The position numbers and the translations under genes were made by a program. Positions 468 through 27,613 of a stretch of DNA of 35,921 nt are shown here, in pieces (position 1 is the stretch's first letter; each line of letters opens with the position of its first letter). This DNA comes from Thermoplasmatota archaeon (GTDB lineage Archaea > Thermoplasmatota > Penumbrarchaeia > Penumbrarchaeales > Penumbrarchaeaceae): assembly GCA_049472275.1 (NCBI GenBank), contig JBLIRL010000002.1:1-35921 (forward strand), given 5' to 3'. The notes beneath the pieces were generated by a model. It searched no databases and was not told where the DNA came from. It was given only the letters and a program-made list of their open reading frames with translations.

Positions 468-3400
468 TCATTTCCCCTCGATACAGACCGTCAGCACGTA
501 GGCAGATGGAACATGTGCCTGGACCTTGCTTTCTTCATCCCCATGGTTCACGAAGACCTCGAATGATATTCCGCCCTTGTTCGGAAGTTTGACCACCTCG
601 GTGCACTGGACGGACCGAAGGTCGACCGAAAGACCCAAGCCCTTCATCTTCAGATATGATTCCTTGGCAGAGAAGAACAGGGTCTGCATTACATTCTCGC
701 CCACGTCGTATTCCTTCTGCTTCCTCTTGATCAATTCGGCCTCTTCGATGGTGAATGCCTCATCCACGAAGGACAGATCCCTATGCTCGGCCAGTTCTAT
801 ATCGACCCCGTGGACGCTGTCGGAAACGGAGCAAACGGCCCATCTGTGGGAATGTGAGATCGATATCTCTATCTTCTTGCCTTCTGCAAGGGCGTAGGGT
901 TTCCCCCCCTCCTCGGTCATTATCTTTATCGACCGTGTGGGTACAACCCTGTATTTCTCGGTGGCGAGATACCAGAGGACGGCCATCTTTGCGCAGACCC
1001 TCCCCATCGTATGCTCCCTTCTCCTCTTCTGGGTCATCTTCTCGTTGACCAATCCTTTCCATTCTTCCTCATCGAAATATTTCACGTAGTTCTCTAGGTC
1101 CTCCGGGGCTGAATCCAGATCTATCCTGAAGACCCTGGCTCCCTCACCGGGACTGTGAAACTCCTCGTAATGGACGGAGTGGTCCCCCTTCAGCTCTCCC
1201 TCGTAGGCCATCATGGACTTCAGCTGGTAATCCCTGAAGGAGAAGCGAACGTTCCCATCCCCGTCCACGAAGTCCACGTCGAACTTGAACGTGGTGTCCT
1301 CCCTGCCCTCGAACCTTACCCAGGCGAGGCCGGGTTCCGATGTGAAGGTATCGACGTGATATTCGATAGAACCCACCTTGGTGGGAAGCGCCATCAACTT
1401 GAACCTGTCAAGAACGTACGCCCCCGCGGTCTGGAAACCGCATTCGGTCTGCATCGGAGCGGTGAGTATGTCGCTGTTGGTCCATCCTGTTGCAGGATCG
1501 AACATGTCGGAGGGCGCCGGTCTGTAGACGCCAACGAGCTCACCGTCCTTCAGGACCTCCATCCCCTCGAGGACCTGGAATCGCGGACCGTGGAAGAGGT
1601 GTTCATATATCTCGGGCCTCAGGACCTGGGCGAGCACGTTCCGGGGTTTCAGGGGATGGTCCATGACCTTCTGGCACTCCCGGGATCTAGTTCCCATAAC
1701 GACACTACCGTTGTAATGTTCCACCTGGACCTCCTTCCCAGTCTTCTTGGATCGGAGGATCGAATACACCCTGAGGGTGACTATCGTCTCGTCATCACCT
1801 TCCGATTCAATTCCGCCCTCCACGAAGAGGTCGAGCTGCTCCTTTACGTTCACAGCTTTCTTGAACCGGATATCCCGAAGCTCGACGACCTCCTTGTCGG
1901 AGCAAAGCGTTTTGGCAGTCTCCGCGAAAAGCTCCATCCCCATCACTCCCGGAAGAACCATCGTACCCATTATCGAATGGTCCGGAAGGAACCTTTCCCT
2001 TTTCCCATCCAGGGATCTTCTGACATGAATCCTGGTCCCGGTGTTCTCTATCACCTCGTCCAGGAGAGGCCCCGGACCTTTGGGGATCGAAGGTTCCTTA
2101 TCGACTTCGTTCGGCAACTCCGGAGACGACTCTTCCTTCATAGGTGGATGAATTCCCTCGGACCATTTCAGGATACCACCCTTGTCCATCGGTCCAAGGG
2201 ATCCTGAGTAATATATCTCCCTCTCCTTCCCGTGAAGGATCTCCGATATTGCATATTCGATCCCGTCATCGGCTGGTATGAAGGTTATGCCGCCCATCTC
2301 GAGGAGGGTCTTGACAGCTCCTCTTGAGGCCATGCCAACATTTGCCCATGCTGACCACCCAACTGCCTTGAATATGCAGTCAGGATGGTATTTGAGCAGG
2401 GCGCCCCTCAATTTGGCAATGGTATCATTCGCACTGCTGTAGTCCACCTGTCCGGCGTTGCCGAACCTGCCAGCTACAGAGGTGAAGGTAAGGAAGAACT
2501 TCACGGGATGGTCCCTTGTTGCTCCGATGACAGCCTTCGCTCCCTGAACCTTGATATCGAAAACCCTGTCGAAATCCTCCTCTTTCTTGGAAAGCAGGGA
2601 TTTCGACTGCTCAATCCCCGCCGCATGGATGATCCCATCTATCCGGCCGGCCTCGGCTGCGATCCTGGATATGGCCTCCGCATCCCTGATATCTGATCTG
2701 TGATAATGAGGCTCGGAACCCATGGATTCCAGCTCCTTCAGGAGTTTGTGGACACCGATGCTCCTCGTTATCCTCGAGAATTCGCGATCGAGCATTACCG
2801 GTGTTACCTTCTTTCCTTCGTCGATCAGCGCCTTTCTGATCTCCTCCTTCTTCGCTGCAAGCCCCTCCTCATCCAGTTCGGACAGTTCCTCCGTATCCGG
2901 AAGAAGCTCTGCGATGTCTATTATGTGGAACTTCAGCTTGGCCCTCTTGGCAAGTCCCTTAATGATCTCCGCCGTAATGCCTCCCCCGCCACCGGATACG
3001 AGTATCGACATGCCGTCAACCAGATCGATATTGGGCCGTCTCGGAGGTAAGAATATCCTCATAGCCGGGAGATACCTCCTGATGCCATCGCTCCCCACCT
3101 CTAGGGGATGGCCCTCATTGGAAACCTCTGCAAGTAGGAGATCACATGCACTCTCGACCCCGATCCCGGGGTCCACGTCAAGGGATATCACGTCGGCATC
3201 CGGATATTCACGACCCACCGCCTTGGTGAAACCCGAGATGCTGCCGTTGAACGGATTCACACTTCGGTCCAGGGCGAACCTGCCACCCATTCCGGTGATG
3301 GAGTAGAGGAATCCTCCCTCCTTCAGCCTCCTGTCCAGGGACTTGCAGGTCCGAAACAGCAATTTCGATGTGGATGCCGACAGTCTTTCCCAGTCCTCCG

Positions 3401-6400
3401 GGTCCGGATCGGCTTCCAGGAACAGCGGGGAGATGCAGACGATCCCCTCGATCTCACCTATGGCTTCCTCGTCGTAATCGAACATACCCTGGGGGATATG
3501 GAATGCATCGATCCCCAGCTTCTCCTCCACTACAAGGGCCGAACCCTCGTCCCCGCCGATAATGAGCGCCTTCCTCCCCCTGACCGGACTTTTCCCGGTC
3601 TCCAGCATCGGAGCCTCGTCCGATTGGAGGACCCATCTGTTTATCCTCCCTTTCAGCTGCTCCTCGGATAGCTGTTCCACACTCACTTCCTCCTCTTCAT
3701 CGACGGAGGGTTGCTCCCGCTGCTCCGCCACGCCTGTCGAAACAACGTAATCGATGATCTTCCTTAGAGTATTGAGGTCCGTGAGATTGATAGAGTCGTC
3801 CCTCGGCAGGTTGAACTTCTCCCTTGCCATCGCGAATAGCTCCACCTGTTTCACCGTGTCTATACCGAGATCGGCCTCGAGGTCCAGGTCGAGCTCGAGC
3901 ATATCTTCAGGATAGCCTGTCTTCTCGGCCACGATCTCGATGACCTTCGTCTTGACGTTCTCCCAGTGATCGGAGCTTCCCGTTTCGGAACTCGCCTCCG
4001 GTGGTTCCTTCTTCTCGACCGCCTTCTCCACGACCGGCGCCGGTTCTCGGGAAATGGCTGATATCTGCACTGGCTCGGTTACCGTTGTAACGGACCAGAT
4101 CTTGCCTACAACATAATCTATGATCTTTCTCAGGGTGTTGAGCTCGGAGAGGTTAACGGAATCATCCTTGGGCAGAGAGAAATCCTCCCGGGCGGTGGCG
4201 AACAGCTCCACCTGTTTCACCGTGTCTATACCGAGATCGGCCTCGAGGTCCAGGTCGAGCTCGAGCATATCCTCAGGATAGCCTGTCTTCTCGGCCACAA
4301 GTGATATCACGATATCCTTCGCATTGTCCCAGACCTCCTGGCTAGAGGAAGGCCGGGGAGCTGTTTCATGTTCAGGTTCCGGTTCTGGTTCTGGTTGGGG
4401 TTCGGGTTCGGCCTCCCGAGCAGGGGCGGCATCCTCGACCTCCGTCCCCCCGGAAGGGAGCGCCTTTTTCTCCTCTCTGATCGGGATCTCCCCTCCCATC
4501 TTCTCGATAACATAGTCGATGATCTTTCTCAGTGTATTGAGGTCCTGCAGATTGATGGCATCATCCCTGGGAAGATCGAAATCCTCCCTTGCAAGTGCAA
4601 AGAGCTCCACCTGCTTCACCGTGTCTATACCGAGATCGGCCTCGAGATCGAGGTCCAGCTCCAGCATGTCATCGGGATAACCTGTTTTCTCGGATACCAG
4701 TGCCACGACCTTGTCCTTGACCTGGTCCCACCGGTCGATCTCCTCCTCGGCTTCCACCTCAATCTTCTTCTCCTTGTCACCACTGTCTACCTCCACCTCG
4801 ACCTCCTCGGTGATGTGGACCGGTCTTCTCTCCTCCGCGACCCGTCCTTTGCCAGATTTGATCTCCTTCTTGTGGATGATGTAATTGATTATATGTCTCA
4901 ATGTTGGAAAGTCCCTCAGGTTCACGCCCTCGTCCTTGGGAAGTTCGAAATGAATCCTAGCAGCTCCGAACAGTTCCACCTGTTTCACGGTGTCGATGCC
5001 GAGATCGGCCTCGAGGTCAGCATCTATGTCGATCGTGTCCTCCGGGAATCCCATCTTCCGGGCGAATATCCCGACAACCTGCTCCTTGACCTCCCTGAAG
5101 ATCGCCTCGTCAACGGTCTCCGCTATCTTCCTCTGATATCCTATCTCGGAGGATTCCCTTCTCACAGCCCTGTGGGGGATAAGATGGTCCCTTCCCGAGT
5201 CCTTGAGCCTCAGCACGTTCCTTTCTACCTCCAGCTCGACGGGTTCTGTGGTTGCTACCGAACGAAGCCATGCCTCGTAACGATCACGAGAAATGTACCG
5301 GTCTCTCGAATCCGGCCTCTTCATGAGCAGGAAGGACAGCTGGGATCCGAAACCGGCTGCCAGTCTCAATCCGTAATGTCGGTCATGCTTGCCTCCCCTT
5401 GAAAGCTGCATGCCCTCGAACTGCCTGTCAATGTGATGGGGATCGAGGTTCGCAATGGGTATCTCGAAACCGTTCTCGAGGCATTTGACAAGCACAGGGT
5501 CCTCAAGACACGCTCCGAAGGCATGCCCTGTGTAACCTTTCGTGTTAAGAATGACGATGTCCCTGAAATTCTCCCCGAAGGTCCGCCTCAGCGACTCCAC
5601 CTCGGCCGCCGAGGAACCGCCCCTTGCAGGGGTGTACGTCTCATGGGACATGAAAAGCATATCGGAGGCTATCTCCTCCCTCTTCAGACCGTGCATCCTT
5701 TCCATCTTGTGGATGAACCTGTCCATTGACCTAGCGATATGCGCCACGTCCAGCCTGGAACCGTGGAATGCGGAGTTCCCGATATGCGAGCCCAGAACCT
5801 CGACTATCGGGTTCATACCCCTTCTTCGCGGCTCTTCCTCGGCTTCCACGACCAGCGCGGCGACGCCGGAACCGAGTATCATCCCCTTCCTTCGCTCATC
5901 GAAGGGGATCGCTGCATTCTTGATATCCTTCTCGTTCGTCAGGGCTCCCATCGCCAGCAAGGAAGAGCCGAACCATTCCATATTGGCATCCGAGGCCGGG
6001 TCATCGGCTCCAAGTACGATAACGCGTTTGCACCTTCCGGATTGGATCCAATCCTGTGCAATGCCCACAGCGATGGTCGATGTCGCGCATGCGGAGTTAA
6101 CATGGATGTTCGGACCTTTGGCCTTGATGTACTGTGCGAACTGCGAATGCCCCATGGCAAGGACCCTGAACATGAAATTCCTCGGGAAATGGTATTCCTT
6201 AACCCCCTCGTTCATGCCGAGGGCTTCGAACTCTTCCTGGAGTTCCGTATCCTTCACCCTTTTCCTGACAGCCTCGATGAGCCTTTCCCTTTCCTTTCCG
6301 ATCGCCTTGTGTATCTTTGCCGTGTAGTACTGCGCAAGTTCGGTCAACAGCCTGTCGATCCCGGGGAACGCCGATGCGAAAATGATCCCAGTGTCCTCCT

Positions 6401-9400
6401 GAAGCTCCAGCGGAAGTTCCCAATCCTCGGGCAGGAAGGACCCCGTGGAGGTCTGCGAATATCTCTTCACAAGAGGTATGCCGGCATCCTTCAGGGAGAG
6501 GAGTCCCGCACCGAAGGCAAGCTGCGAGGTGATATCCAGTGAATCGATCAGACTCTCGGGAACACCGAACTCCTCGTTGAGATCGAAGGGACTCAGTCTT
6601 CCTGCGAACTGTGCCACCTTCGTACCATCGTCCAGTTTGACCATCTCGGCGGAACCGTCCGGCTTCTTGTCGAGCCTGATGATGTTCTTGTCGATGAATC
6701 CGGTCTTCTGTTCTTCCGTTAGGGCCTCTATGAGATTCCTCCCCTGAACCAGGAGGTCCAGGTTCTCCTCCGCGAATACCTTTTTAAAACTCCCGGGGAG
6801 ACCGAATGCGGCACCCGAGATCACCACCCTTGCTCCTCTCCTGGTCGGTGCCGTGGTCCCGGTGCCGGAAAGGTCCACGTCATCCCGGAAGGGTTCCTCT
6901 ATGGCTGCCTTGCCGGGAACGGACCCATGTATCTCCCTCAGGAACCTGTCGATGGCTTCCTTGTTGGAGGACAGGAACTCATCGAAGGAAGGTGATCTGT
7001 CGCTGACCGATGGAGCACCTGTGGCACCTTGGACGACGGGTGGGATGGATGACTCGGACGGGCCAAGGCCCTCTGACCCTCTGCTTGTGGGCATATCCTT
7101 GACGAAGCCGTCCAGGGCGTCGAGGAACTCGGAGGTGAAGAATTCGCGGTCATCCTTCGCGGGGATCCTCAGGTCGAAACCGAGGGACCAAAGGAAGGAG
7201 ACCATCTCGTTGAAGGTGGACATCCCGCCCTTCTTCGGATGGTTGGAAGTTATCGGAAAGACCATGCCCTTTTTGACCTCGTCTTCCATGAGATTGTAGG
7301 CGAAGGAAGTGAGGGCCCTTTTCGGTCCCACCTCGATGAAGGTCCTGCAGCCGTCCGCGTAGGCCCTTTCCACCTGGGAGATCCACTCCACCGATGAGGC
7401 TACCTGCTCTTTTAAAAGGTCGAGTATATCCTCCTTTATCCTTTTCGGATCGCCCTCCATCGGATAGTAGTCACCGGTAACGTTGGAAAGGAGAGGTATC
7501 TTCGGGGGATTTATCGTCAGCTTCGAGAGGTAATCACGAAGTATATCCTTCACGGGTGCAACCACACCGGAGTGGAAAGCATGCGAGACGGGAAGCTGGA
7601 CCGCTTCTATGCCGCGCTCCTCGAACTTCCTGATGGCCTGGTCAACGGCTTCCGACTGCCCCGCGATGACCGTCTGGACCAGACAGTTCTTGTTTGCGGG
7701 AATCACATATCCATCGACCTCCGAGATAACTTCCTCCACCACATCCAGTCCGGCCATCACCGAGGCCATCTTTCCGGGATCGTCGACCTTTAGGTCCCTC
7801 ATCTCCCTACCCCTTGCCGAGACGGCTTTCAGGGCGTCCCCGAAATCCATCACTCCCGATGCTATCAGCGCACCGTACTCCCCGAGGGAATGCCCCATGG
7901 CAAGATCGGGTTTCACACCAAGCCTCTGAAGTAGCTTGTACATGGCGGTATCCACTGTCAGCATGGAGGGCTGATTGAACTCAGTCCTCCTGAGGGTCTC
8001 GGAGGCCTCCTTGTATTCAGGTGTCTTCGGTTCCACATCCCGGAATACGTAGGTCGACAGCGGCTCAGGGATCAGGTCCTCCATCACGCTGTCGGCCTCG
8101 TCGAAGGTTTCCCTGACCATTTTGAACTTGTTGCGAAGCTCCCTGAACATGTTGATGTACTGGGAACCCTGTCCCGGGAACATGAAGCAAACCTTGCCGT
8201 GGTCCATTCTCTCCCTGTCGCCAACGAATATCCCCTTTGCGGCAAGAGCCAGCAGTCCCTTCTCGTTCATTCCCACCTTCTTGAGCATTTCGACCTGTTT
8301 CGCCAGATGCTCGTGGTCCCTTGCGGATATGCCGAGCCGGTACCTGCCTTCGTAGGACGGCATCGTGAAGGCATCTCTCAGCCTGCCTCCCGATTCGAAC
8401 AATTCGCTTGCCTTCTTGACAGAATCTTCTGCCTGCCTCAGAAGATCGAGGGGATTGTCGGATGAAAACAGGAAATATTCGGCCTCCTCCTCCTGGTGCT
8501 CCTTCAGGTATGATCTTACACCCTCAAGGTCAACTTCCCTTCCGGCCTCGCCCGGGTCCTGTACCGGGGATCCTGGCTCGTCGCATTCCCGTACGCCTTC
8601 CGATGCCCCCTTTGCAGCCTTCCAAGCTTCATAGATCTCGCTGTCGAACTCCTCGAGTATCACATGAAAGTTGGTCCCTCCGAACCCGAATGCGGAAACA
8701 CCGCACCTTCTCGGTACATCCTCTTTCTTGCGAACCCACTCCTTCGCTTCGGTGATGACGAAGAAGGGGGAAGTGCCCCAATCATAGTAAGGATTCGGTC
8801 TCTCGAAATTTATCTGGGGAGGCAGTATCTTATTCTTTATCGCCAGAAGTGATTTTATCATACCGGCGGCTCCCGCTGCGGATTTCAGGTGCCCGATCTG
8901 GGATTTGATGGACGTCAGTCCGATGGATCCATTGGGCATATCCTTGAAGAACTGGTCCAGGGAATTGAGCTCCGCAACATCTCCAACGGCTGTGGAGGTT
9001 CCATGCGCCTCGATGAAGGATATGGTGTCGATATCCACCCCGGCGTCCGCATAGGCGTTCTTCAGGGCGAGGGTCTGCCCCTCGGGATTGGGGGCAGTTA
9101 TCCCCTTGGCCTTTCCGTCACTGGATGCACCTATTCCTCTCACGACACCGTAGATCTTGTCCCCGTCGTTCACGGCATCATCCAGGCGTTTGAGTATTAT
9201 TATTCCCGATCCCTCTCCCATAAGGAAACCGTTGGCTCCTTCTGCGAATGGACGCGATCCGTCCGGGGTCAGGGCGCCTATCTTGCAGAATTCCACGAAG
9301 CTCTGGGAGGTCATGACCGAATCGGTTCCGCCGGATACGGCGATGTCTATCTGGTCAAGAAGCAGTGCGTTCCTTGCCGTATGGACCGCTGCCAGAGAGG

Positions 9401-11123
9401 ACGCGCATGCTGCGTCGGTGATGAAGTTGGGACCCTTCAGATTGAAGAGATTGGCGAGCCTTCCGGAAGCGATGTTCGGAAGGCAGCCCGGCATGGAATC
9501 CTCGTTTATCTGAATAATTTTTTCGTCCATTATCCCATGAACCGCGTTCTTTATCCTGACCCTGGCATCCTGGGGAAGGTTCTTCCACTCCTCGACCTCG
9601 TCCATCCAGGCATAAAGATTGTCGAAGGAAACCCTGAGCGCCCCCCAGTCCCTGTTCTCTCCACCGCCGGAGTTGGAGACGATGACCCCTATCCGTGTCC
9701 TGTCCACCTCGCTGTTGTCGATAAGCCCGGAATCTATCAAAGCCTCCTTGCAGGCCTTCATGGCGTACCTCTGGTAGCGATCGATCTGCTCGAAGAGTTT
9801 TGGGGGAAGCCTGAACTCCCTGAAATCCATGTCGAGATCGGTTATGAAAGCTCCGATCTTGGTATAGGTCTTGTCAGGCTTCTTCCTGTCAGGATCGTAA
9901 TAGTACTTCCAGTCCCACCTGTCCTTGGGCACCTCCATGGACGCGTCCACACCATCCAGGACCGCCTTCCAGAAATTATCGGTCCCGATGCCCTTCGGGA
10001 AAACCGAGCCGATACCCACGACGGCGATCGACCTGTCGTGATAGTCCTCCGGGACGGGCATTCCATCTACCGTGATCTCACTTCTGTCCAATTTTTCCCC
10101 CTCCTTTGTATATTCCGTTTCAATCGCATCCTTGACAGCTTTCTCCGTTGCCGACACCGGGGCAAGGTCAGACAGTGCCTCCTCGACACCGCCGTAGGAT
10201 TCAAGCTCCCTCGCTTCCGACAGTTCCTCGCCCGCCGGATACAATATGCCGCCCCCTCCCTTCAGGGAAGAAGCGACGAGCTCCTTCATGCTCTCCTTCA
10301 AAGTAATGTATACGGTCTTCGGATCCTCATCCTGATCGACCATTGCCTTCTCGAGATTTGTCAGGTCGCTCCTCGTGGCATCATCGGCAATGAACCTGTG
10401 CGGCCTTCCGATGGACTCTCCGACAAGGAACGTGTCCCCGCTCCTGTGGGCATCAATCAGTTCCCTGAGTGCTTCCGGGAGAGAGGCCTCCGATGTGGAG
10501 AACAGCTGGGAATCCATCACCAGACCGGATATCCCGAGGTCCCGGGCCTTCCCGAGGTCGGAGAGGGGTATGCCTCCTCTCACGATCAGAGGCCTGTCAT
10601 CGACCTCCTTGAGGACCTCGGCCAGGAGGTCTTTTGTGCTGAGTTCGGAAACCCTTCCTCCACCCTCCCGGCCCCTGAGTATCAATGCATCCGCCCCTGC
10701 CTGCGAGGACGCCTCCGCCTCCTCAACTGTACATACCTCCTGGAAGACCTTCAGCCCCATGGACCGGGCCGTCTCGTATATGGTCGACCTGACCATGTCG
10801 GGTATGGTCTCCTTCGGCATGGATACGAGGAGTTTCATTCCGTCGGGAAGCTCGCCGGTTATCAGGGATTGGAGCTTCTCGCTCATCGGGTCCACGCGGA
10901 CCCCGAAATCCACCGATGATCCGTCCATTGCCCTCAGGAGTTCCGCTATTCCATTTGAATCGACGTACTCCAGGTCGATGACCCCCATGGCTCCGGCCTT
11001 GGAAGCGGCCATGGCGAGTCCTGGGTCGGTCTGCCCGGGAGGATTATAGACAATTATGTCCATACTTGTACGAAGTAGAGAGCCTACTGTCTCAACACTA
11101 ACTCTGTCCGTTCCTGAACTCAT
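468..11123 (-). CDS. Type I iterative PKS / PUFA-synthase-like megasynthase, 3,551 aa: ER-like(NMO/FabK/PfaD TIM barrel)-KS-AT-KS-ACPx4-KR-DH-PPTase
   Basis: Uninterrupted 10,656-nt ORF with a GGTGA motif 4 nt upstream of ATG 11123. Motifs read from the translation follow. NMO/FabK-like barrel: [23 protein letters not shown]. KS1: DAAC573ASS, EAH707GTST, GH745LKSAAG. Malonyl-type AT: PGQGSQ, GHS1079LGE, H1181AFH. KS2: NSAC1679ATS, SH1827ET, TGH1867AFG. Four ACP-like repeats: [12 protein letters not shown] with T2045/2168/2301/2423. KR: [9 protein letters not shown], DY2895SSAN. PKS-type DH: H3049[17 protein letters not shown]. Sfp-type PPTase: GKPY, [21 protein letters not shown]. My residue count closes exactly on 3551. 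Confidence 0.92.
   Translation of the reverse strand: [3551 protein letters not shown]
471..1151 (-). other. Domain: Sfp-type 4'-phosphopantetheinyl transferase fused at the C-terminus, aa ~3325-3551
   Basis: [69 protein letters not shown] and [14 protein letters not shown] match the Sfp-family motif order (GKP; (F/I)S(I/H)SH; G(I/V)D(I/L)E; (F/W)(S/C)xKE(S/A)xxK). Confidence 0.8.
1200..2072 (-). other. Domain: PKS-type (double hot-dog) dehydratase, aa ~3018-3308
   Basis: LPDH3049[11 protein letters not shown] matches HxxxGxxxxP (His codon 1977-1979). [12 protein letters not shown] matches the GYxYGPxF-like motif. A second hot-dog half follows and ends near FRDYQLKSM. Confidence 0.75.
2196..3656 (-). 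other. Domain: ketoreductase (structural plus catalytic subdomains), aa ~2490-2976
   Basis: Pseudo-Rossmann segment [16 protein letters not shown]; catalytic Rossmann segment [23 protein letters not shown] (Ser2710 codon 2994-2996); [22 protein letters not shown]2895SSAND. Confidence 0.8.
3741..5105 (-). repeat. Four tandem ACP-like domain-encoding repeats (units ~4875-5105, 4506-4736, 4107-4337, 3741-3971), spaced 369/399/366 nt between equivalent positions
   Basis: Each unit encodes ..V..KTGYP(E/D)[31 protein letters not shown].DD.(I/V)NL..[11 protein letters not shown].. (unit 1 is more divergent). The DNA repeat is visible directly: 95 nt at 3838-3932 match 4204-4298 with one mismatch. 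The linkers are acidic, low-complexity or PEPEPQ-type. Confidence 0.88.
5316..6833 (-). other. Domain: second ketosynthase KS2 (aa ~1431-1936) with intact Cys-His-His, placed between AT and the ACP array
   Basis: [13 protein letters not shown] N-terminus, PNIHVNSAC1679ATSTIAVG (Cys codon 6087-6089), FMSH1827ETYTP, [8 protein letters not shown]1867AFGA, [13 protein letters not shown] C-terminus. It has a long insertion (~aa 1470-1640) compared with KS1. Confidence 0.75.
7302..8198 (-). other. Domain: acyltransferase (malonyl-CoA:ACP type), aa ~976-1274
   Basis: [10 protein letters not shown], GHS1079LGEYGA (Ser codon 7887-7889), and VSHAFHSG, where the HAFH motif is classically associated with malonyl specificity. 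Confidence 0.9.
8646..10037 (-). other. Domain: ketosynthase KS1 (aa ~363-826), canonical Cys-His-His
   Basis: [13 protein letters not shown] N-terminus, [10 protein letters not shown]573ASSLAAV (Cys codon 9405-9407), EAH707[8 protein letters not shown], IGH745[22 protein letters not shown] C-terminus. Confidence 0.9.
10389..11066 (-). other. Domain: FMN-dependent enoyl-reductase-like TIM barrel (nitronate monooxygenase/FabK/PfaD family), aa ~20-245, approximate borders
   Basis: [65 protein letters not shown] and [31 protein letters not shown] parallel the NMO/FabK motifs (PM.G....LA.AVS.AGGLG; GAD.....G.EAGGH; P....GGI.DG). The usual His of E(A/S)GGH is Arg157 here. Confidence 0.55.
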
Positions 11124-17092: not shown

Positions 17093-18589
17093 TTGCGTTT
17101 TGGGAAGAACGGGACGGTTCTCATTATCATATCATTGATGATTCTTCTCGATGGGGTCCAGATCCTGTCCCCCATATTTCCTGGGGTTTCCAATTCGGGA
17201 GCCAGGGGGGCGCCATCTCCCCCTGAGAACGTCTCGGCTTCTCTGGTTTCCCGGGATGTCATAGAGGTCTCTTGGGACCCACCTTCCTCCGATGGGGGGA
17301 TCCCTATCATCTCGTACGATCTCCTGAGGTCGATGGACGGAGGCATATACATTCCGATCACATCATCGAACTCCACATCCGGCAGGCAATCATACTGGGA
17401 TGCGGATCTGGAGCCCGATCACAATTTTTCATACAGGGTTTCGGCGAGCAACCAGAACGGTTCATCCCCGCTGAGCGAGGAAGCCTGGATCATTTTAGAG
17501 GCTCCACCGAATTCACCGAATAACCTTACCGCCATTTCGGGGGATGGAAAGGTATACCTGCAATGGGAAGAACCGGAACCCAGAATATATTCGGGTATCG
17601 ATGGATACAGTATAGCTCTGTATTTCGAGGGTGAATGGATTGAACCCTCCATGACAAAACCCTCGAACGCCACATCCTGGGAGATCACGGGTCTCGAGAA
17701 CGCCGGAGATTACTATGCCGAGCTCGTTGCCTTCAATAGTATAGGCGGATCCGAACCTGCGGGCGTCTCGTTCTCTCCCGGCGCTCCTCCATCACCTCCG
17801 ACCAACGTCAGGATCGCCGCGGAAGGCTCGTCTGCCGTCATATCATGGAACACGCCGGGGAACAACGGGGGGTACCCCGTGGTCAGATATCATGTGTTCA
17901 GGAAAGTGAATAACGGCTCGATCGAGGTGGTTGGTACGAGACCCAGCGGTGCAAGGAGCCTCACAGACCACGGTCTGGAGCTCGACACCCGCTACCATTA
18001 TTACATCAGGGCGGAGAACATCATCGGTTTCTCCCTGCCGAGCGAGGTGGTCGAGTTCTTCAAACCCACGACATACAACGTTCCGCTTCCTCCAAATATC
18101 ACTCTGGCAAGGAAGGGAGTGCTCTGGATCGAGATCCACTGGGAAGCTCCTCCGGCACAAGCGGGGGCCCCGATCACGGAATACAGGGTCTATAGAACCC
18201 ATTTCGACAAGGGACGTTTCGAGAACACAACCACGGTTGGTCCGAACTCCACCCTATTCAACGACACAGATGTCAAATACGATATCAACTACACTTACCG
18301 CATATCCGCCGTGAACCGCATCGGTGAATCAGGGAAGGGCGACCCAGTTACCATAAGGGTCAGAAACCTGTCCGAACCTTCACCCGAGGTCAACATCACC
18401 GGCAAAGTGAAGAAGGACCACAGAGCCTTGATCTTCGGAGCCATCGGGGGACTCGTGATCGTTGCGATCTCCATCTTTCTCTATTTCTTCATGACCAGGG
18501 AGATTCAGATCGAACCTCCTCCCGGGGACGGGGAATCGTACGAGGATAACCTCACCGTTAGGATCGACCGCGGTCAAGGACCCTCTTGA
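17093..18589 (+). CDS. Surface-anchored protein with four fibronectin type III domains, 498 aa, TTG start
   Basis: Four FN3 openings: PSPPENVSASLVSRDVIEVSWDPP, PNSPNNLTAISGDGKVYLQWEEP, PSPPTNVRIAAEGSSAVISWNTP, PLPPNITLARKGVLWIEIHWEAP. Each is followed by Y.(V/L).R and (V/I)SA.N..G motifs. N-terminal anchor MRFGKNGTVLIIISLMILL; C-terminal TM ALIFGAIGGLVIVAISIFLYFFM. About 15 N-x-S/T sequons. A GGAGG motif sits 7 nt upstream of TTG 17093; the next in-frame ATG (17138) would remove the charged n-region. Confidence 0.75.
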   Translation: MRFGKNGTVLIIISLMILLDGVQILSPIFPGVSNSGARGAPSPPENVSASLVSRDVIEVSWDPPSSDGGIPIISYDLLRSMDGGIYIPITSSNSTSGRQSYWDADLEPDHNFSYRVSASNQNGSSPLSEEAWIILEAPPNSPNNLTAISGDGKVYLQWEEPEPRIYSGIDGYSIALYFEGEWIEPSMTKPSNATSWEITGLENAGDYYAELVAFNSIGGSEPAGVSFSPGAPPSPPTNVRIAAEGSSAVISWNTPGNNGGYPVVRYHVFRKVNNGSIEVVGTRPSGARSLTDHGLELDTRYHYYIRAENIIGFSLPSEVVEFFKPTTYNVPLPPNITLARKGVLWIEIHWEAPPAQAGAPITEYRVYRTHFDKGRFENTTTVGPNSTLFNDTDVKYDINYTYRISAVNRIGESGKGDPVTIRVRNLSEPSPEVNITGKVKKDHRALIFGAIGGLVIVAISIFLYFFMTREIQIEPPPGDGESYEDNLTVRIDRGQGPS

Positions 18590-19757
18590 GCTCCTGGTTC
18601 AGGGCCGGGACCATCTGAAGGACATCTCCCACGAGACCGACATCAGCCAACTTGAAGATCGGGGCAGTCGGATCCTTGTTTATCGCCACTATGAAATCAG
18701 AACCCCGCATGCCCACCTGATGCTGAATCTTCCCCGATATCCCGCATGCTATGTAGAGCTTCGGCGAGATGGTCTTTCCCGTCTGTCCAACCTGGTCTGA
18801 CCTCGGTCTCCACCCCGAATCCACGGCCACCCTGGAGGCTCCCACGGCTCCTTTCAGTGTGTCAGCCAGGTCCTCGAGCAACCTGAAGTTCTCCGGAGAT
18901 CCCATACCTGCACCGCCCGCAACCACGATATCCGATTCCTCGATGCCCTTGACACCTTCCCTGGAGGTGCTCACGATCTCAAGTATCCTGACTGCGAGTT
19001 CATCGGTCCTGACGTTCACAGGCACTTCGATCACCTCGGGTTCCTTCCCTTTTCCACCCTCCGCTCTGAAAACGTTGGGCCTTACCGTTGCCATCTGAGG
19101 TCTCACATCGGGGGCCACGATATCCGCCATGATGTTGCCGCCGAATGCAGGTCTCGATTGTATCAAGAGACCGTCCGAGATCGATAGACCGGTACAATCT
19201 GCGGTCAATCCGACCGCGAGCGTTGCGGCGACCCGGGGAGCGAGGTCCCTCCCGATGTGAGTGGCGGGAAAGAGGACGATGCTCGGACTGTGCTTCAGAA
19301 TAAGACCCGAAACGATTGGCGCGAATGATTCGGTGAGATACTGTTCAAGGGTCTTATGTTCCGCGAGATAGACTATATCCACGCCGTGATCTCCCAGCTG
19401 TTTTGCGAAATTTCCGATCCTATCCCCGAGCAGTATCGCTCCGACATCCTCGGATAGCTCATCTGCGAGATCTCTGGCCTTTGTCGCGAGTTCCAGGGCG
19501 GAGGAGGAGAGCCGGCCGTTCCTGACCTCGCAGAATACCCACACACCGCGGTAAGTGGTACTGTCAACCTCCCTTCCGCGAGGGTGCTCGAACTCGATTG
19601 CATCGAAACTGCATAACTTCACACAAACGCCGCATAGAGTGCATTCCGGTCCTATCTCGGCCTTTCCATCCACCATCCTTATCGCGTTGAAAGGGCACCC
19701 CTTAGAACATGCCGTGCAGCCAACGCATTTATCCCCGATTATCTCGATCCCCATCAC
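18558..19757 (-). CDS. etfA: Electron transfer flavoprotein alpha subunit with an N-terminal 2x[4Fe-4S] ferredoxin domain
   Basis: CVGCTACSKGCP and CTLCGVCVKLCS, then an ETF-alpha body ending in the FAD motif PKLYIACGISGKIQHQVGM. The start is either GTG 19757 or, more likely, ATG 19754, which overlaps the etfB stop (TGATG). Confidence 0.85.
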   Translation of the reverse strand: MMGIEIIGDKCVGCTACSKGCPFNAIRMVDGKAEIGPECTLCGVCVKLCSFDAIEFEHPRGREVDSTTYRGVWVFCEVRNGRLSSSALELATKARDLADELSEDVGAILLGDRIGNFAKQLGDHGVDIVYLAEHKTLEQYLTESFAPIVSGLILKHSPSIVLFPATHIGRDLAPRVAATLAVGLTADCTGLSISDGLLIQSRPAFGGNIMADIVAPDVRPQMATVRPNVFRAEGGKGKEPEVIEVPVNVRTDELAVRILEIVSTSREGVKGIEESDIVVAGGAGMGSPENFRLLEDLADTLKGAVGASRVAVDSGWRPRSDQVGQTGKTISPKLYIACGISGKIQHQVGMRGSDFIVAINKDPTAPIFKLADVGLVGDVLQMVPALNQELKRVLDRGRS

Positions 19758-20560
19758 CCATCACCTCCGATGATCTTCCTCTCAACTAGGATCTCCGCCA
19801 GCTGTCTCGTCATCTCCCCCGTGTCTCCCTTCAGCATCCTCGTATCGTCCCTTGCGGGCGGGGAATAGGTCCGCCTAACCTGGGTCGGGGAGCCCGCGAG
19901 TCCCAGATCATCCTCGTTTGCCTTGACGGCCTTATGGTCAAGGACCTCGTAGGGCTTTCTCCTTGCTTCCATGATTCCCGGGAGCGGTGCGACCTTCGGA
20001 ACGAAGGAGGGTGATGGGATGCAGGTAACCAGGACTGGCATTCTCGATTCGAGAACCCTTGAACCGTCCTCAGTCTGCTGCGTGACCTGAAGTCTTCCGT
20101 CATAGGTCAGGGATAACTTCTCCGCATAGGTAATCTGTGCAAGGCCAAGAAGCTCAGCCATCTCCGGTCCGACCTGGGCGGTGTCCCCGTCGATCGCCTG
20201 GAGTCCGCAGAATACGATGTCCGCATTACCTATCTTCCTCACGGCGTGTGACAGGGCAACGGAAGTAGCCCATGTATCGGAACCCGCGAAAACCCTGTCC
20301 GAAAGCAGATAGGCCCGGTCCGCACCGAGGGCCAGGGATTTCTGAAGGACCCTTCTGGCCTGAGGGGGGCCCATCGAAAGTACGATCACCTCGATATCAT
20401 CCCGGGAACCCTTCAACCTGAGAGCCTCTTCGAGGGCGAAATGGTCGTAGGGATTGAGGATCGACTCGACCCCTTCTCTGACCAGGGTATTTGTCTTCGG
20501 ATCGATCCTTACCTCCGTCGTGTCGGGAACCTGCTTTACGCATACAACGAACCTCATCAA
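19754..20560 (-). CDS. etfB: Electron transfer flavoprotein beta subunit
   Basis: MMRFVVCVKQVPDTTEVRIDPKTNTLVREGVESILNPYDHFALEEALRLK is a textbook EtfB N-terminus. A GGAGGTGA motif lies upstream. The gene starts 9 nt after the ACAD stop. Confidence 0.9.
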   Translation of the reverse strand: MMRFVVCVKQVPDTTEVRIDPKTNTLVREGVESILNPYDHFALEEALRLKGSRDDIEVIVLSMGPPQARRVLQKSLALGADRAYLLSDRVFAGSDTWATSVALSHAVRKIGNADIVFCGLQAIDGDTAQVGPEMAELLGLAQITYAEKLSLTYDGRLQVTQQTEDGSRVLESRMPVLVTCIPSPSFVPKVAPLPGIMEARRKPYEVLDHKAVKANEDDLGLAGSPTQVRRTYSPPARDDTRMLKGDTGEMTRQLAEILVERKIIGGDG

Positions 20561-20569
20561 CTCACCTCC

Positions 20570-22213
20570 TCACTTCGCCCTGAAGACCTCCACAAGCTTC
20601 GTCGCAACAAGGTCCATGTCCTGGACCAGCCCTCGCTGGGCGGCGATCACCTTCAACAGACCTGTCTCCTCCACCATGGATGATGAATCACCCGAACCCG
20701 CACCCATCACGAGCTCGATGCCTTCGAGAATCACCTTGTGCGCCGTCCTCCTGGCCATTATCCTGGCCATCGCCCTCATAGTCTCCAGATCGTAGGGGAA
20801 CGCATCGCTTATAACGCCGGAGGATGCTGTCTCGCTGAATACCATGGAGACCTCCGCCTCGGCGGTGAGCTCGCCGAGCTTGAACATGACATGCTGGTTC
20901 CTGGTGAGCTTCTGCTGCCTGCATCTCTCGTAGACCACGTTGAGAGCGTTCAAGGCCAGACCGATATGGTCCGCTCCAACGTTGGAGGCACTCTCGTGGA
21001 GCCTGGTCGAACGCCTTGAGAGATCGTGGAAATGGGTTGACCTGGATTTCATATGGTTCTGCCAGCGGTTGCGGGCAATGGTCATCTCCATGATCTCGTT
21101 GGTCCCCTCGTAGATCTGTGTTATCTTGACGTCCCTCTTGATCTTCTCGACCATGTACTCCCGAACGTACCCGTAGCCACCAAGGGCCTGTATCGCATCC
21201 TCGGCCGCATCGTTCGCGGCGTTGGTCGAGAAATATTTGGCGATCGCACCCTCGGTCTGGAGGTCCTCATCCTCTCCGTCGAGCCTGTGTGCGACATATT
21301 CGATGTATGCCCTCGCAGCTGCAAGCTTGACAGCGTGGGGAACTATCAGTTTGTGGGTATAGCCCTGCTTCTCCGAGAGGGGACCTCCCGCCTGTACCCT
21401 CGTCTGGGAATATCTGACCGCCCTTTCCAGGGCTTCCTGGCCAGCTCCCAGGCCGAATGCGGCCACCATCAGCCTCGTGTATCCGAACACTTCCTGCGCC
21501 TGGGACAGTCCAAGACCCTCGATTCCGCCGATGAGATTCTCCGCGGGGACGTAGATATCGTCCATCGTGTACGCCACGGTATTTGCGAGCCGGATGCCGT
21601 GCTTGTCCTCCGGAACCCCGTACTTCATCCCCTGGGTCCCGGATGGTACGATGAACCAGCTCACGCCGTTCTCCACCTTTGCCAGGATGACGTGGATATC
21701 TGCGATGCCGCCGTTCGAGATCCATTGCTTCGATCCGCTGATGCGGTAGCCGATCACCCTGCCGTCCTCCATGACCCTGCTCGCAGTGCTTGTTAGGGCC
21801 CCCAGGTCCGAACCGGCCTCGGCCTCGGTGGCCCCGTAGGAAACGAGCAGACCCTCTGAGGCGACCCTTCCCACCCACTTCTCCTTCTGTTCCTCCGTTC
21901 CCCCCACCCTGATCGGATCTAGTCCCAGGAAGGTCGCGAAAATCCCTGTCGCAATACCAAGATCGATCCTTGCAAGATACTCGCACACCCTGTAGGCGTC
22001 GTATGTTGAGGCCCCGAGTCCTCCGTATTCCTCGGGGATCATCAACAGGTGAATCCCCAGCACGTCGTGGGCGTACATCCTCTGCAACCCGTCCTTGGGA
22101 AACTCACCATCGTGATCCAGATTCAGCAGGTATTCCTCGGGTAGGTTCTGTCTGGCATATTCCCTTAGGCTCTCAATTATGAGGTCTCTGGTTTCCTGAT
22201 CGAAGCCTGGCAT
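20570..22213 (-). CDS. Acyl-CoA dehydrogenase with a ~170-aa C-terminal extension
   Basis: ACAD signatures [15 protein letters not shown] and [33 protein letters not shown]. The ORF track starts at GTG 22222; I prefer ATG 22213 (MPGFDQ...), which is preceded by GGTGGTG. It sits directly upstream of etfB-etfA. Confidence 0.85.
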
Positions 22214-22287
22214 GAGCACCACCGGATGATGGTCGGGAGAACGATCCGGGGACCGGCCCCTTCCACGGGAGGGGGCCTAATAATCAC

Positions 22288-26233: not shown

Positions 26234-27520
26234 ATGGATGATCGTCCGGGGGGACCGTCACAATTCCCGATATTGGCCATAGCGGCGGTCCTTCTAATCT
26301 CCGTTGGAATATCCTCGGTCAGTGCCGGGGGTGACTGGATCTCCTTCAGGGGGAACTTGCAGAATACCGCTGCCTCGCACCAGGACCCCGGCAATCTCAC
26401 AAAGAGGTGGGAGTTCGAGGCCGATTCGTCCATAACGACCTCTGTCGTCATCGGTGACGGGTATTCCATCTTCGGTACATTCAACGGTAGCGTGTATCGA
26501 CTGGATACGAATGACGGGGCCGTCCAGTGGGAGATGAACCTGGATGCCCCGGTCCAATCTACACCCGCATTGGATACCAAGAGAGGGGCTGTTTACATAT
26601 GCGACAGCTCGGGGACCGTGACCAGCCTCCATCTCGTGAACGGAACCGTGAAATGGCAGTGGGTTCCCGAGGACGGGAACGACATACGGTCCTCCCCTCT
26701 GGTTGACGACAAGATCTATTTCGGGTCCTACGACTCCTATCTTTATGCTCTCGAGACCGATGGGAGACTGGCATGGAGGTTCGAAGGATGTCTCGGATGG
26801 ATACACACCTCACCGTCAAAAATGGGCGATATGGTCTATTTCGGATCATGCGACGGTATGATGAGGGCCGTCTCCGCTAGTACCGGAGAGGAGGTGTGGA
26901 ACTTCACATCCGCATACATTCCGTCCTCCCCAGCAATATCCGAAGGTAGAGTATATTTCGGGGCTTATGACTCCAATTTCTATTGTATCGATGCCTACAA
27001 CGGCAGCTTGATCTGGAACACGACACTCGGTAACAACATCTATTCATCTCCTTCCGTGAACGGAGAAAGTGTGGTTGTTGGCTGTGATGACGGCAAGCTC
27101 TACTGCATGGATGCCGGATCTGGTGATGTGCAGTGGGTCTTGGACCTCGGCCCTTCTCCGCTGGAGAGCTCCCCGCTTATAGCAGGGGGGCGCACCATGG
27201 TCTGTTATGATCAGGGAATGATCGTTGCGGACCTGGAGAGCGGTATTGTCAAACAGAGGTTCCTGTGGGGGAACAGCGCCGATGTTTCACCCTCGACCGG
27301 CAGAGGGCTGGTCCTTTTCGGGGATGCGCAGGGCTATGTATACTGCCTCGAGAGCGGCAAGGTAGTGGATGATGACGATGACATGCTGGACCTCAACGAT
27401 GAGGTGGATGCGAGGAGGGACGTCATCTTCTTTGCGGTCGGTATGTTCCTTGTCGTCAACGTACTACTGTTCGTTTTCCTCAGAAAATACAGAAAGATCA
27501 GAAAGAACAGCAGGGATTGA
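26234..27520 (+). CDS. PQQ-like (BamB-type) beta-propeller repeat protein, signal peptide plus C-terminal TM anchor, 428 aa
   Basis: Repeated blades: GSVYRLDTNDGAVQWE, GTVTSLHLVNGTVKWQW, YLYALETDGRLAWRF, GMMRAVSASTGEEVWNF, NFYCIDAYNGSLIWN, GKLYCMDAGSGDVQWV, GYVYCLE. N-terminal FPILAIAAVLLISVGISSVSA. C-terminal poly-Asp, then VIFFAVGMFLVVNVLLFVFL and a basic tail. Confidence 0.8.
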   Translation: MDDRPGGPSQFPILAIAAVLLISVGISSVSAGGDWISFRGNLQNTAASHQDPGNLTKRWEFEADSSITTSVVIGDGYSIFGTFNGSVYRLDTNDGAVQWEMNLDAPVQSTPALDTKRGAVYICDSSGTVTSLHLVNGTVKWQWVPEDGNDIRSSPLVDDKIYFGSYDSYLYALETDGRLAWRFEGCLGWIHTSPSKMGDMVYFGSCDGMMRAVSASTGEEVWNFTSAYIPSSPAISEGRVYFGAYDSNFYCIDAYNGSLIWNTTLGNNIYSSPSVNGESVVVGCDDGKLYCMDAGSGDVQWVLDLGPSPLESSPLIAGGRTMVCYDQGMIVADLESGIVKQRFLWGNSADVSPSTGRGLVLFGDAQGYVYCLESGKVVDDDDDMLDLNDEVDARRDVIFFAVGMFLVVNVLLFVFLRKYRKIRKNSRD

Positions 27521-27613
27521 ACATTTGGGAATGTCCCCATAACCCTTATGTACAATGTCCCGTAATTGACTGGCTGTAGGGATGGGGTGGTCGTCTACAT
27601 CCGGGGGATCGTG

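What the first reader, a model, noticed from the sequence alone, without database searches (positions are those of the whole stretch)
3741..5105. All four tandem ACPs carry Thr in place of the phosphopantetheine-accepting Ser
Seen: every ACP-like repeat reads ...DLEADLGIDTVKQVELF.... The position aligned with the Ser of the universal DS(L/I/V) carrier-protein motif (PUFA-synthase ACPs: LGIDSIKRVEI) is Thr2045, Thr2168, Thr2301 and Thr2423. The codons are ACC at 4989-4991 and ACG at 4620-4622, 4221-4223 and 3855-3857. Four copies using two different Thr codons rule out a sequencing artefact, and no Ser lies anywhere in the helix-II motif. Established, from memory and not checkable here: Ser-to-Thr substitution at this site in E. 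coli ACP yields non-modifiable apo-protein with AcpS. Inference: the cis-encoded PPTase may have co-evolved to O-phosphopantetheinylate Thr, which would be a carrier-protein chemistry I do not know to be described. Alternatively these domains tether intermediates differently or are non-functional. The strong conservation of the rest of the motif, and apparent gene conversion between copies, argue against decay.
Basis: partly seen in the sequence, partly recalled or inferred. Interest (0 to 1): 0.88.

Follow-up and report, generated by a model that had tools for sequence, protein, structure and literature searches.

The report
Carrier proteins with threonine attachment site
All four acyl-carrier domains of this archaeal fatty-acid/polyketide megasynthase carry threonine where every characterised carrier protein has the cofactor-bearing serine. 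This is a conserved trait of a large, uncharacterised enzyme family in bacteria and archaea, which points to a cofactor linkage that I could not find described.

Summary
ORF 468-11123 (-) encodes a 3551-aa synthase: ER, KS, AT, KS2, four ACPs, KR, DH, PPTase. Its four PF00550 domains read DLGIDTVKQ, with Thr2045 (ACC) and Thr2168/2301/2423 (ACG). Sequence and structure alignments place Thr on the phosphopantetheine-bearing Ser at the start of helix II.

It is a family trait, not private to this window. In the 120 closest full-length homologs the column is T 559, S 8, other 0. In 81 loci it is T in 270 of 271 domains, using all four Thr codons. The family matches the uncharacterised "Type R" secondary-lipid synthase of Shulse & Allen 2011. 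It occurs in Chloroflexota, Acidobacteriota, Elusimicrobiota, Myxococcota, Thermoplasmatota and Asgard archaea.

All eight Ser sit in ACP1 of Thermoplasmatota orthologs. Ser (AGC) and Thr (ACC) have swapped there about three times, and no other residue appears, so a hydroxyl is selected.

An Sfp-type PPTase with intact catalytic residues is fused or adjacent in 57 of 62 complete loci.

The best reading is that Thr is O-phosphopantetheinylated by a PPTase lineage that accepts Ser or Thr. This is not shown biochemically. Ten literature searches found no report of it. I found no PPTase signature specific to Thr.

The parts
468..11123 (-). Megasynthase ORF of 3551 aa with domains ER(NMO)-KS-AT-KS2-ACPx4-KR-DH-PPTase. 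The public gene call P0121 starts 37 codons later and gives 3514 aa.
4866..5099 (-). ACP1 (aa 2009-2086), the divergent copy, 55% aa identity to ACP2-4. Attachment-site Thr2045 is codon ACC at 4989-4991. Orthologs carry Ser (AGC in L082) or Thr here.
4497..4730 (-). ACP2 (aa 2132-2209). Thr2168 is codon ACG at 4620-4622. This domain was modelled (pLDDT 91.6), and Thr is the first residue of helix II.
4098..4331 (-). ACP3 (aa 2265-2342). Thr2301 is codon ACG at 4221-4223.
3732..3965 (-). ACP4 (aa 2387-2464). Thr2423 is codon ACG at 3855-3857. It shares a 68-nt identical run with ACP3 over the motif.
471..1061 (-). C-terminal Sfp-type 4'-phosphopantetheinyl transferase domain (aa ~3355-3551). 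ISHS, GVDIE and FSAKESYLK align with Sfp H90, D107/E109 and E151/K155.
8634..10034 (-). KS1 (aa 364-830) with the Cys/His/His motifs DAACASS, EAHGTST and KSQIGHL.
7254..8186 (-). Acyltransferase domain (aa 980-1290) with the GHSLG motif.
5199..6686 (-). Second KS-like domain, the 'CLF' of Type R (aa ~1480-1975). It keeps Cys (NSACATS), SHETYT and KGYTGH.
2244..3446 (-). Ketoreductase region (aa ~2560-2960; Pfam KR match 2761-2902).
1212..2069 (-). PKS-type dehydratase (aa 3019-3304) with the motif HSIMGTMVLP (HxxxGxxxxP).
10224..11066 (-). N-terminal NMO/FabK-like enoyl-reductase domain (aa ~20-300). Among the fetched loci it was found only in the archaeal ones, and Pfam lists it in several archaeal homologs including Asgard.
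18558..22222 (-). EtfA (with an N-terminal ferredoxin domain), EtfB and a 550-aa acyl-CoA dehydrogenase. An ACAD lies near the synthase in 45 of 81 related loci and ETF in 14 of 81. A link to the synthase is inferred only.

Best explanation
The four domains are functional acyl carrier proteins of an iterative PUFA-synthase-like megasynthase. Their 4'-phosphopantetheine arm is attached to the hydroxyl of Thr, the first residue of helix II, instead of Ser. The C-terminal Sfp-type PPTase domain of the same polypeptide (a separate gene just downstream in most bacterial relatives) transfers the arm from CoA. This PPTase lineage accepts either Ser or Thr.

Shown here:
- The position of Thr in the fold.
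- Family-wide restriction of that column to Thr, rarely Ser.
- Repeated Ser/Thr exchange at the orthologous site.
- Intact catalytic motifs in KS, AT, KR, DH and the PPTase.
- Tight PPTase linkage.

Inferred:
- That Thr is actually modified.
- That the cognate PPTase does it.
- That the substitution has a functional pay-off, for example insulation from housekeeping AcpS or ACP phosphodiesterase, or a linkage less prone to beta-elimination.
For: 1. Register. PF00550 matches four times. phmmer alignments put T on the DS(L/I) Ser of solved ACPs. The AF2 model places Thr37 at the helix II N-terminus and its best structural matches are ACPs.
2. A hydroxyl is selected. The column reads T 559 / S 8 / other 0 in the 120 best whole-synthase homologs and T 270 of 271 in 81 loci. 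Thr codons are ACG 129, ACC 119, ACA 16, ACT 8. In domains that carry the full motif the column is Thr or Ser.
3. Natural Ser/Thr swaps. ACP1 of Thermoplasmatota orthologs is S in 8 and T in 6, in the same motif DLGID[S/T]VKQV. The Ser codon in L082 is AGC, against ACC in the window. A neighbour-joining tree implies about three switches. A bacterial representative, P0339, reads S-T-T.
4. No alternative carrier. Bacterial members have Thr in every ACP of the synthase. The window protein has no Ser-type ACP.
5. The synthase is otherwise intact: an uninterrupted 3551-aa ORF with KS Cys/His/His, AT GHSLG and DH HxxxGxxxxP.
6. PPTase. Sfp residues H90, D107, E109, E151 and K155 are conserved. A PPTase ORF is present in 57 of 62 loci that have at least 3 kb downstream of the DH ORF. 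It lies on the same strand in 56 of 57, with a median gap of 36 nt.
7. Scale. A profile search of 1.84 billion representatives gave 1671 proteins at E<=1e-30, though that count also includes Ser-type PUFA-like proteins.
Against: - No biochemical evidence exists that any PPTase modifies Thr. The one tested precedent, E. coli ACP S36T with AcpS, is negative (PMC3340395).
- I found no PPTase sequence feature that separates Thr-type from Ser-type systems. The clade-conserved E-P-R after DxE is also present in the Ser-type P0320.
- The loci were retrieved with a pattern that contains DT. Only the whole-synthase search and the profile search are free of that bias, and even the profile was built from Thr-type domains.
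- A trans-acting Ser-ACP elsewhere in the bacterial genomes cannot be excluded from 20-kb loci.
Confidence: 0.72

Rival explanations
1. The Thr-ACP array is not phosphopantetheinylated. It serves a structural or docking role, and a separate Ser-type ACP (housekeeping AcpP or another carrier encoded elsewhere) carries the intermediates.
For: E. coli ACP S36T is unmodifiable. Bacterial hosts have a FAS II AcpP. Some Thermoplasmatota orthologs keep one Ser-type ACP1 ahead of the Thr copies.
Against: - The window protein and every bacterial homolog sampled lack any Ser-ACP in the synthase.
- From general knowledge, archaeal hosts lack FAS II ACP.
- The column is restricted to T/S, with no Ala, Gly or Asn among 567 domains. 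That is not expected for a non-reactive scaffold.
- The whole helix II recognition motif is invariant.
- A dedicated PPTase is retained next to, or fused with, the synthase.
Confidence: 0.12
2. Thr is modified, but with a different prosthetic group or by direct O-acylation. One example is a phosphoribosyl-dephospho-CoA type arm as in citrate lyase or malonate decarboxylase ACPs.
For: The hydroxyl is conserved, but the chemistry attached to it was not observed here.
Against: - The linked transferase is an Sfp-type PPTase with all CoA/Mg/catalytic residues.
- My domain searches of the loci used only the window's own synthase, ETF and ACAD domains, so a CitX/MdcG-type transferase was not looked for.
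- The domains match PF00550 and FAS/PKS ACP structures.
- From general knowledge, direct acyl-O-Thr could not reach the KS, KR and DH active sites.
Confidence: 0.06
3. The domains are decaying or non-functional, and the synthase is a relic.
For: None beyond the missing Ser.
Against: - The 3551-aa ORF is intact with all catalytic motifs.
- 13 of 78 ACP columns are invariant across 36 divergent sequences.
- The Thr is kept through all four synonymous codons.
- The trait is conserved across many phyla and both prokaryotic domains.
Confidence: 0.02

Closest known systems
'Type R' secondary lipid synthase gene cluster (Shulse & Allen 2011, PMC3098273): Koribacter, Solibacter, Elusimicrobium minutum, Roseiflexus
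   Same: The architecture is KS-MAT-CLF-ACP(3-6)-KR followed by a PPTase. The host phyla match (Acidobacteria, Elusimicrobia, Chloroflexi). The product is unknown.
   Different: That paper never mentions threonine (0 occurrences). The window version is a single archaeal polypeptide with an N-terminal ER and a fused C-terminal PPTase. The named Type R genomes themselves were not inspected here, and KS phylogeny was not run.
PUFA synthase PfaA tandem ACPs (TIGR02813; motif LGIDSIKRVEI)
   Same: Both have tandem ACP repeats separated by low-complexity linkers. The flanking motif (E/D)LGID-x-(I/V)K is shared. The window protein scores 996 bits on TIGR02813. Ser-type PUFA-like proteins are the next class found by the ACP profile.
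   Different: The attachment residue is Ser in PfaA and Thr here, and the following residues are SIK[RK] against TVKQ. The TIGR02813 score is below its cutoff of 1010.1. KS2, DH, ER and PPTase are fused in the window protein.
Enediyne iterative PKS (PKSE, e.g. CalE8/SgcE): KS-AT-ACP-KR-DH-PPTase
   Same: Both have a C-terminal integrated Sfp-type PPTase after KR-DH in an iterative type I synthase. This is from my own knowledge; the CalE8 ACP paper PMC3107222 was listed but not read.
   Different: PKSE has one ACP with Ser, no second KS and no ER. Homology to PKSE was not tested here.
E. coli ACP S36T mutant
   Same: It carries the same residue change at the same structural position.
   Different: It is an engineered change that gives non-modifiable, non-functional apo-ACP with AcpS (PMC3340395). 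Here Thr is the conserved wild-type state and is paired with an Sfp-type PPTase.
Sfp-type (group II) phosphopantetheinyl transferases
   Same: The PPTase domain aligns to Sfp (1QR0/4MRT, E = 3e-8), with H90, D107, E109, E151 and K155 conserved.
   Different: The presumed acceptor is Thr. The clade carries E-P-R where Sfp has K112-P-I114. That motif is also present in a Ser-type relative, so it is not a Thr determinant.

Membership tests
PP-binding carrier protein (Pfam PF00550) | Profile match above the gathering score | tested here: met
   79.1 bits against a cutoff of 20.8, with four matched stretches.
PP-binding carrier protein (Pfam PF00550) | Helical-bundle ACP fold with the attachment residue at the N-terminus of helix II | tested here: met
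   The AF2 model has pLDDT 91.6 with helices 2-16, 37-50 and 67-77. Foldseek top hits are ACPs with TM 0.75-0.88.
PP-binding carrier protein (Pfam PF00550) | Conserved Ser in the D-S-(L/I/V) motif as the 4'-phosphopantetheine acceptor | tested here: not met
   All four domains have Thr at that column.
PP-binding carrier protein (Pfam PF00550) | Actually carries 4'-phosphopantetheine | not testable with these tools
   This needs mass spectrometry of the expressed protein.
Type R secondary lipid synthase (Shulse & Allen 2011) | pfaA homolog KS-MAT-CLF-ACP(3-6)-KR with an associated PPTase | tested here: met
   The domain order is KS-AT-KS2-ACP4-KR-DH-PPTase. The same gene set is found in 81 loci. 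A PPTase is linked in 57 of 62 complete loci.
Type R secondary lipid synthase (Shulse & Allen 2011) | Placement of the proximal KS domain in the Type R clade of their KS tree | not tested
   No reference Type R sequences (Roseiflexus, Koribacter, E. minutum) were retrieved. The assignment rests on architecture and host phyla.
Type R secondary lipid synthase (Shulse & Allen 2011) | PPTase with x(G/D)xP (P1a) and hShxH (P1b') motifs | tested here: met
   The window has GGKP and ISISHS. The clade consensus is G.P and SisH (motif definitions).
PUFA synthase PfaA (NCBIfam TIGR02813) | Score at or above the curated cutoff | tested here: not met
   996.2 bits against a cutoff of 1010.1.
Sfp-type PPTase (PF01648) | Profile match and the catalytic/Mg/CoA residues (Sfp H90, D107, E109, E151, K155) | tested here: met
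   PF01648 scores 36.5 bits against a cutoff of 25.

The most novel reading that the evidence does not exclude
O-(4'-phosphopantetheinyl)-L-threonine is the native prosthetic linkage of a whole, phylogenetically very broad clade of PUFA-synthase-like megasynthases ('Type R'). In some Thermoplasmatota and Asgard archaea these may be the host's only carrier proteins, if archaea lack FAS II ACP as generally held. It is installed by an Sfp-type PPTase lineage that accepts Thr, which housekeeping AcpS does not. That would be a second natural acceptor residue for a modification held to be Ser-specific, and a ready-made orthogonal ACP/PPTase pair.
Probability: 0.68. Interest if true: 0.85.

Novelty: new variant of a known kind. 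Interest (0 to 1): 0.8.

Why it matters
The serine acceptor of 4'-phosphopantetheine is treated as invariant in fatty-acid, polyketide and non-ribosomal peptide biosynthesis. From my own knowledge, the PROSITE pattern PS00012 requires Ser at this position, and Ser-to-Thr is used in the laboratory as a null allele (PMC3340395).

A large natural clade that uses Thr would add a new post-translational linkage. It would show that PPTase acceptor specificity is wider than assumed. It would also warn that motif-based tools may score these ACPs as inactive.

It could supply an ACP/PPTase pair insulated from host AcpS or AcpH for pathway engineering. The family's product is unknown. Its presence in Thermoplasmatota and Asgard archaea as a complete, self-activating fatty-acyl synthase bears on the question of fatty-acid-type lipid synthesis in archaea.

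The hypothesis can be tested with one co-expression and an intact-mass measurement.

Tried and rejected
- **Sequencing artefact or private mutation.** Rejected: the same Thr is present in hundreds of homologs through all four codons.
- **Mis-registered alignment.** Rejected by the Pfam match, the phmmer-PDB alignments, the AF2 model and Foldseek.
- **Another conserved Ser in the domain as the true site.** Rejected: the invariant columns are G17, E30, A31, D32, L33, G34, D36, T37, V38, K39, Q40, L61 and T66. None is Ser.
- **A Thr-specific signature in the PPTase.** The clade consensus keeps the Sfp catalytic motifs and has a conserved E-P-R after DxE. The fused PPTase of the Ser-type relative P0320 (DSVKVA ACPs, same architecture) has the same E-P-R. 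No determinant was found.
- **Literature.** They covered Thr with phosphopantetheine phrases, DTV/LGIDT motifs, S36T, Type R organisms and archaeal PKS. None turned up Thr as a natural acceptor. The PMC id I recalled for the Beld et al. PPTase review was not held. Absence from this library is not proof of absence.
- **First ACP-region protein search.** It returned only proteins of 376 aa or less, apparently a length cap relative to the query. That made the family look like free-standing ACPs. The 2966-aa query corrected this.
- **Strong gene conversion among repeats.** Only a local 68-nt tract between ACP3 and ACP4 was found.
- **Not attempted.** Modelling an ACP-PPTase complex, because the structure tool returns no coordinates or contacts.
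Full report
**1. The observation**

The window holds one very long ORF on the minus strand, 468..11123, encoding 3551 aa. Pfam gives this domain order:
- NMO-type enoyl reductase, aa ~120-270
- KS, 364-830
- AT, 980-1290
- a second KS-like domain, ~1480-1975
- four PP-binding domains
- KR, 2761-2902
- PKS dehydratase, 3019-3304
- ACPS-family PPTase, 3439-3547

The motif GID[ST] occurs four times. Thr2045 is ACC at 4989-4991, Thr2168 is ACG at 4620-4622, Thr2301 is ACG at 4221-4223, and Thr2423 is ACG at 3855-3857.

**2. Register**

phmmer of ACP4 against all PDB chains aligns DLGIDTV with DLGVDSI (PigH), DLGADSL (Plasmodium ACP) and DLDVDSL (S. coelicolor ACP). E. coli ACP was also a hit. An AlphaFold2 model of ACP2, built on 36 family sequences, has mean pLDDT 91.6. 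Thr37 opens helix II, H37-50. Its best Foldseek matches are acyl carrier proteins, with TM 0.75-0.88. So Thr occupies the structural position of the phosphopantetheine-bearing Ser.

**3. It is a family trait**

- **ACP-region search.** Among the 120 best hits, every repeat of about 105 proteins reads DLG[IV]DTV. About 13 lower-ranked proteins read DLGIDSI, the classical PUFA type.
- **Whole-synthase search.** A query of aa 355-3320 does not depend on the ACPs alone. It returned 120 full-length homologs. Their attachment column reads T 559, S 8 and nothing else.
- **Genome scan.** The search pattern contained DT, so this count is of Thr-type domains by construction. In the 79 loci kept plus two others, 270 of 271 ACP domains carry Thr. 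The single Ser sits in a different ORF.
- **Codons.** Thr codons across the loci are ACG 129, ACC 119, ACA 16 and ACT 8, so selection acts on the amino acid.
- **Profile search.** A word-index-free HMMER search of 1.84 billion representatives found 1671 proteins at E<=1e-30. Among the best 150, the proteins fall into two sharp classes: Thr with TVKQ, and Ser with SIK[RK]. The 1671 therefore include Ser-type proteins.
- **Hosts.** These include Anaerolineae and Chloroflexia (Oscillochloris, Chloroploca, Kouleothrix), Acidobacteriota, Elusimicrobiota, Myxococcales, Gemmatimonadota, Leptospiraceae, Ilumatobacter, a cultured Amycolatopsis, Thermoplasmatota, and Heimdall/Asgard archaea.

**4. Origin of the window**

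The closest homologs are Thermoplasmatota MAG proteins at 59-77% identity. Locus L082 is syntenic with the window: ferredoxin-EtfA, a PALP enzyme, a transglutaminase-like protein and a Fer4 protein lie next to the synthase. The window is therefore very probably from an uncultured Thermoplasmatota archaeon.

**5. The natural experiment**

All eight Ser residues lie in ACP1 of Thermoplasmatota orthologs (patterns STTT, STTTT, STTTTT). They sit in the same motif, DLGID[S/T]VKQV. Six other orthologs, including the window, have Thr there.

In L082 the Ser codon is AGC, one transversion from the window's ACC. That explains why ACP1 uses a different Thr codon from ACP2-4.

On a neighbour-joining tree of the KS-AT-KS2 region, the bacterial and Asgard outgroups and the basal Thermoplasmatota sequence have Thr. 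The tree has no bootstrap and is indicative only. Ser appears once, and Thr returns at least twice. A bacterial representative, P0339, also reads S-T-T.

In domains that carry the full motif the site is Ser or Thr. The few other residues sit in degenerate or poorly aligned copies, such as one DLGIDAVKQR repeat. This is the pattern expected if the side-chain hydroxyl is what matters, that is, if this is the attachment site and both residues are serviceable to the cognate enzymes.

**6. The rest of the machine is intact**

- KS1 has DAACASS, EAHGTST and KSQIGHL.
- AT has GHSLG.
- DH has HSIMGTMVLP.
- The PPTase domain aligns to Sfp (1QR0/4MRT, E = 3e-8). ISHS, GVDIE and FSAKESYLK match Sfp H90, D107/E109 and E151/K155.

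In related loci the genes are KS-AT-KS2, ACPn, KR-DH and PPTase, fused to varying degrees. Of 62 loci with at least 3 kb downstream of the DH ORF, 57 have a PPTase ORF. It is on the same strand in 56 of 57, with a median gap of 36 nt. Bacterial members have no Ser-type ACP in the synthase, so either Thr is loaded or these conserved synthases have no carrier.

**7. Mechanism and its limits**

The best explanation is that Thr is O-phosphopantetheinylated by the linked Sfp-type PPTase.

I looked for a Thr-specific adaptation in the PPTase and did not find one. Seventy clade members share SisH, G.DlE, wsaKE..LK and an E-P-R triplet where Sfp has K112-P-I114. However, P0320 has the same architecture with a fused PPTase and ACPs reading DSVKVA, and it has the same E-P-R. 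So the evidence favours a PPTase lineage tolerant of both residues over one retooled for Thr.

Why Thr is fixed is open. Candidate reasons are insulation from AcpS or AcpH, or a linkage more resistant to beta-elimination. These are inferences from general chemistry, and none was tested.

**8. Comparison with what is known**

The architecture and host range match the 'Type R' secondary lipid synthase of Shulse & Allen 2011: KS-MAT-CLF-ACP(3-6)-KR plus a PPTase, in Koribacter, Solibacter, Elusimicrobium minutum and Roseiflexus, with product unknown. That paper contains no mention of threonine. I did not inspect those named genomes or run their KS phylogeny, so the Type R label rests on architecture and taxonomy.

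The protein scores 996 bits on the PfaA model TIGR02813, just under its cutoff of 1010. The KR-DH-PPTase tail resembles enediyne PKSE; that is from my own knowledge and was not tested.

Ten full-text searches found no report of Thr as a natural phosphopantetheine acceptor. The library lacks most subscription journals, so this is not proof.

**9. Verdict**

Thr as acceptor is the best reading, at about 0.7. It is a clade-wide trait of a known but uncharacterised cluster type, not a peculiarity of this protein. A specially co-evolved PPTase is not shown.
- Novelty: a new variant of a known kind.
- Interest is high, because the Ser acceptor is regarded as invariant and the claim can be tested with one co-expression and a mass measurement.

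Noticed in passing
window 5199-6686 (-), aa ~1480-1975: The second KS-like domain, called 'CLF' for Type R clusters, keeps a full Cys/His/His set: NSACATS, SHETYT and KGYTGH. These motifs are conserved in nearly all of the 120 homologs: N[AS]AC.., SHET[YF]T in 117 of 120, and KG.TGH in 106 of 120. Canonical chain-length factors lack the Cys, so this may be a second active ketosynthase.
   Followed up: partly
window 18558-22222 (-); also L001 993-4465, L082 1-893: Genes for EtfA (with an N-terminal 2x[4Fe-4S] ferredoxin domain), EtfB and a long (550 aa) acyl-CoA dehydrogenase lie near the synthase. An ACAD is present in 45 of 81 related loci and ETF in 14 of 81. Most bacterial clusters lack the ER domain. 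An ACAD/ETF pair might therefore supply enoyl reduction, or it may be unrelated beta-oxidation.
   Followed up: partly
window 468-11123 (-); P0144, P0151, P0140: A complete, self-activating bacterial-type fatty-acyl/polyketide megasynthase (ER through PPTase in one chain) is encoded in Thermoplasmatota. Close homologs are annotated from Heimdallarchaeota and 'Asgard group' MAGs. The NMO/ER fusion was seen only in the archaeal versions. This is relevant to fatty-acid-type lipid synthesis in archaea.
   Followed up: partly
L001 14320-18189: In a bacterial Thr-ACP cluster, the PPTase gene is followed on the opposite strand by a wax-ester synthase/DGAT, Fe-alcohol dehydrogenase fragments and an aldehyde dehydrogenase. 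This hints at a wax-ester or fatty-alcohol product for at least some members.
   Followed up: no
P0139 (3371 aa), residues 167 and 291: One homolog carries two extra Thr-type ACP domains at the N-terminus, upstream of the KS, in addition to the internal array of four.
   Followed up: no
window 32772-35784 (+): A 2-hydroxyacyl-CoA dehydratase D-component (HGD-D) is followed by two BcrAD/BadFG-type activator ATPases. This is a radical dehydratase module typical of anaerobic amino-acid or aromatic fermentation.
   Followed up: no
window 26234-31790 (+): Four consecutive genes encode secreted or membrane-anchored beta-propeller repeat proteins (PQQ/WD40/FG-GAP-like repeats by eye), each with a C-terminal transmembrane helix and a basic tail. 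No domain search was run on them.
   Followed up: no
window 4368-4450 (-), aa ~2225-2252: The ACP2-ACP3 linker contains a Pro/Glu repeat, EPEPQPEPEPEPE, which gave a spurious Pfam hit to trypanosome procyclin (PF05887). The other linkers are unrelated in sequence and length.
   Followed up: no
window 11013-11123 (-): The public gene call for this protein (P0121, 3514 aa) starts 37 codons downstream of the first ATG of the ORF (3551 aa).
   Followed up: no
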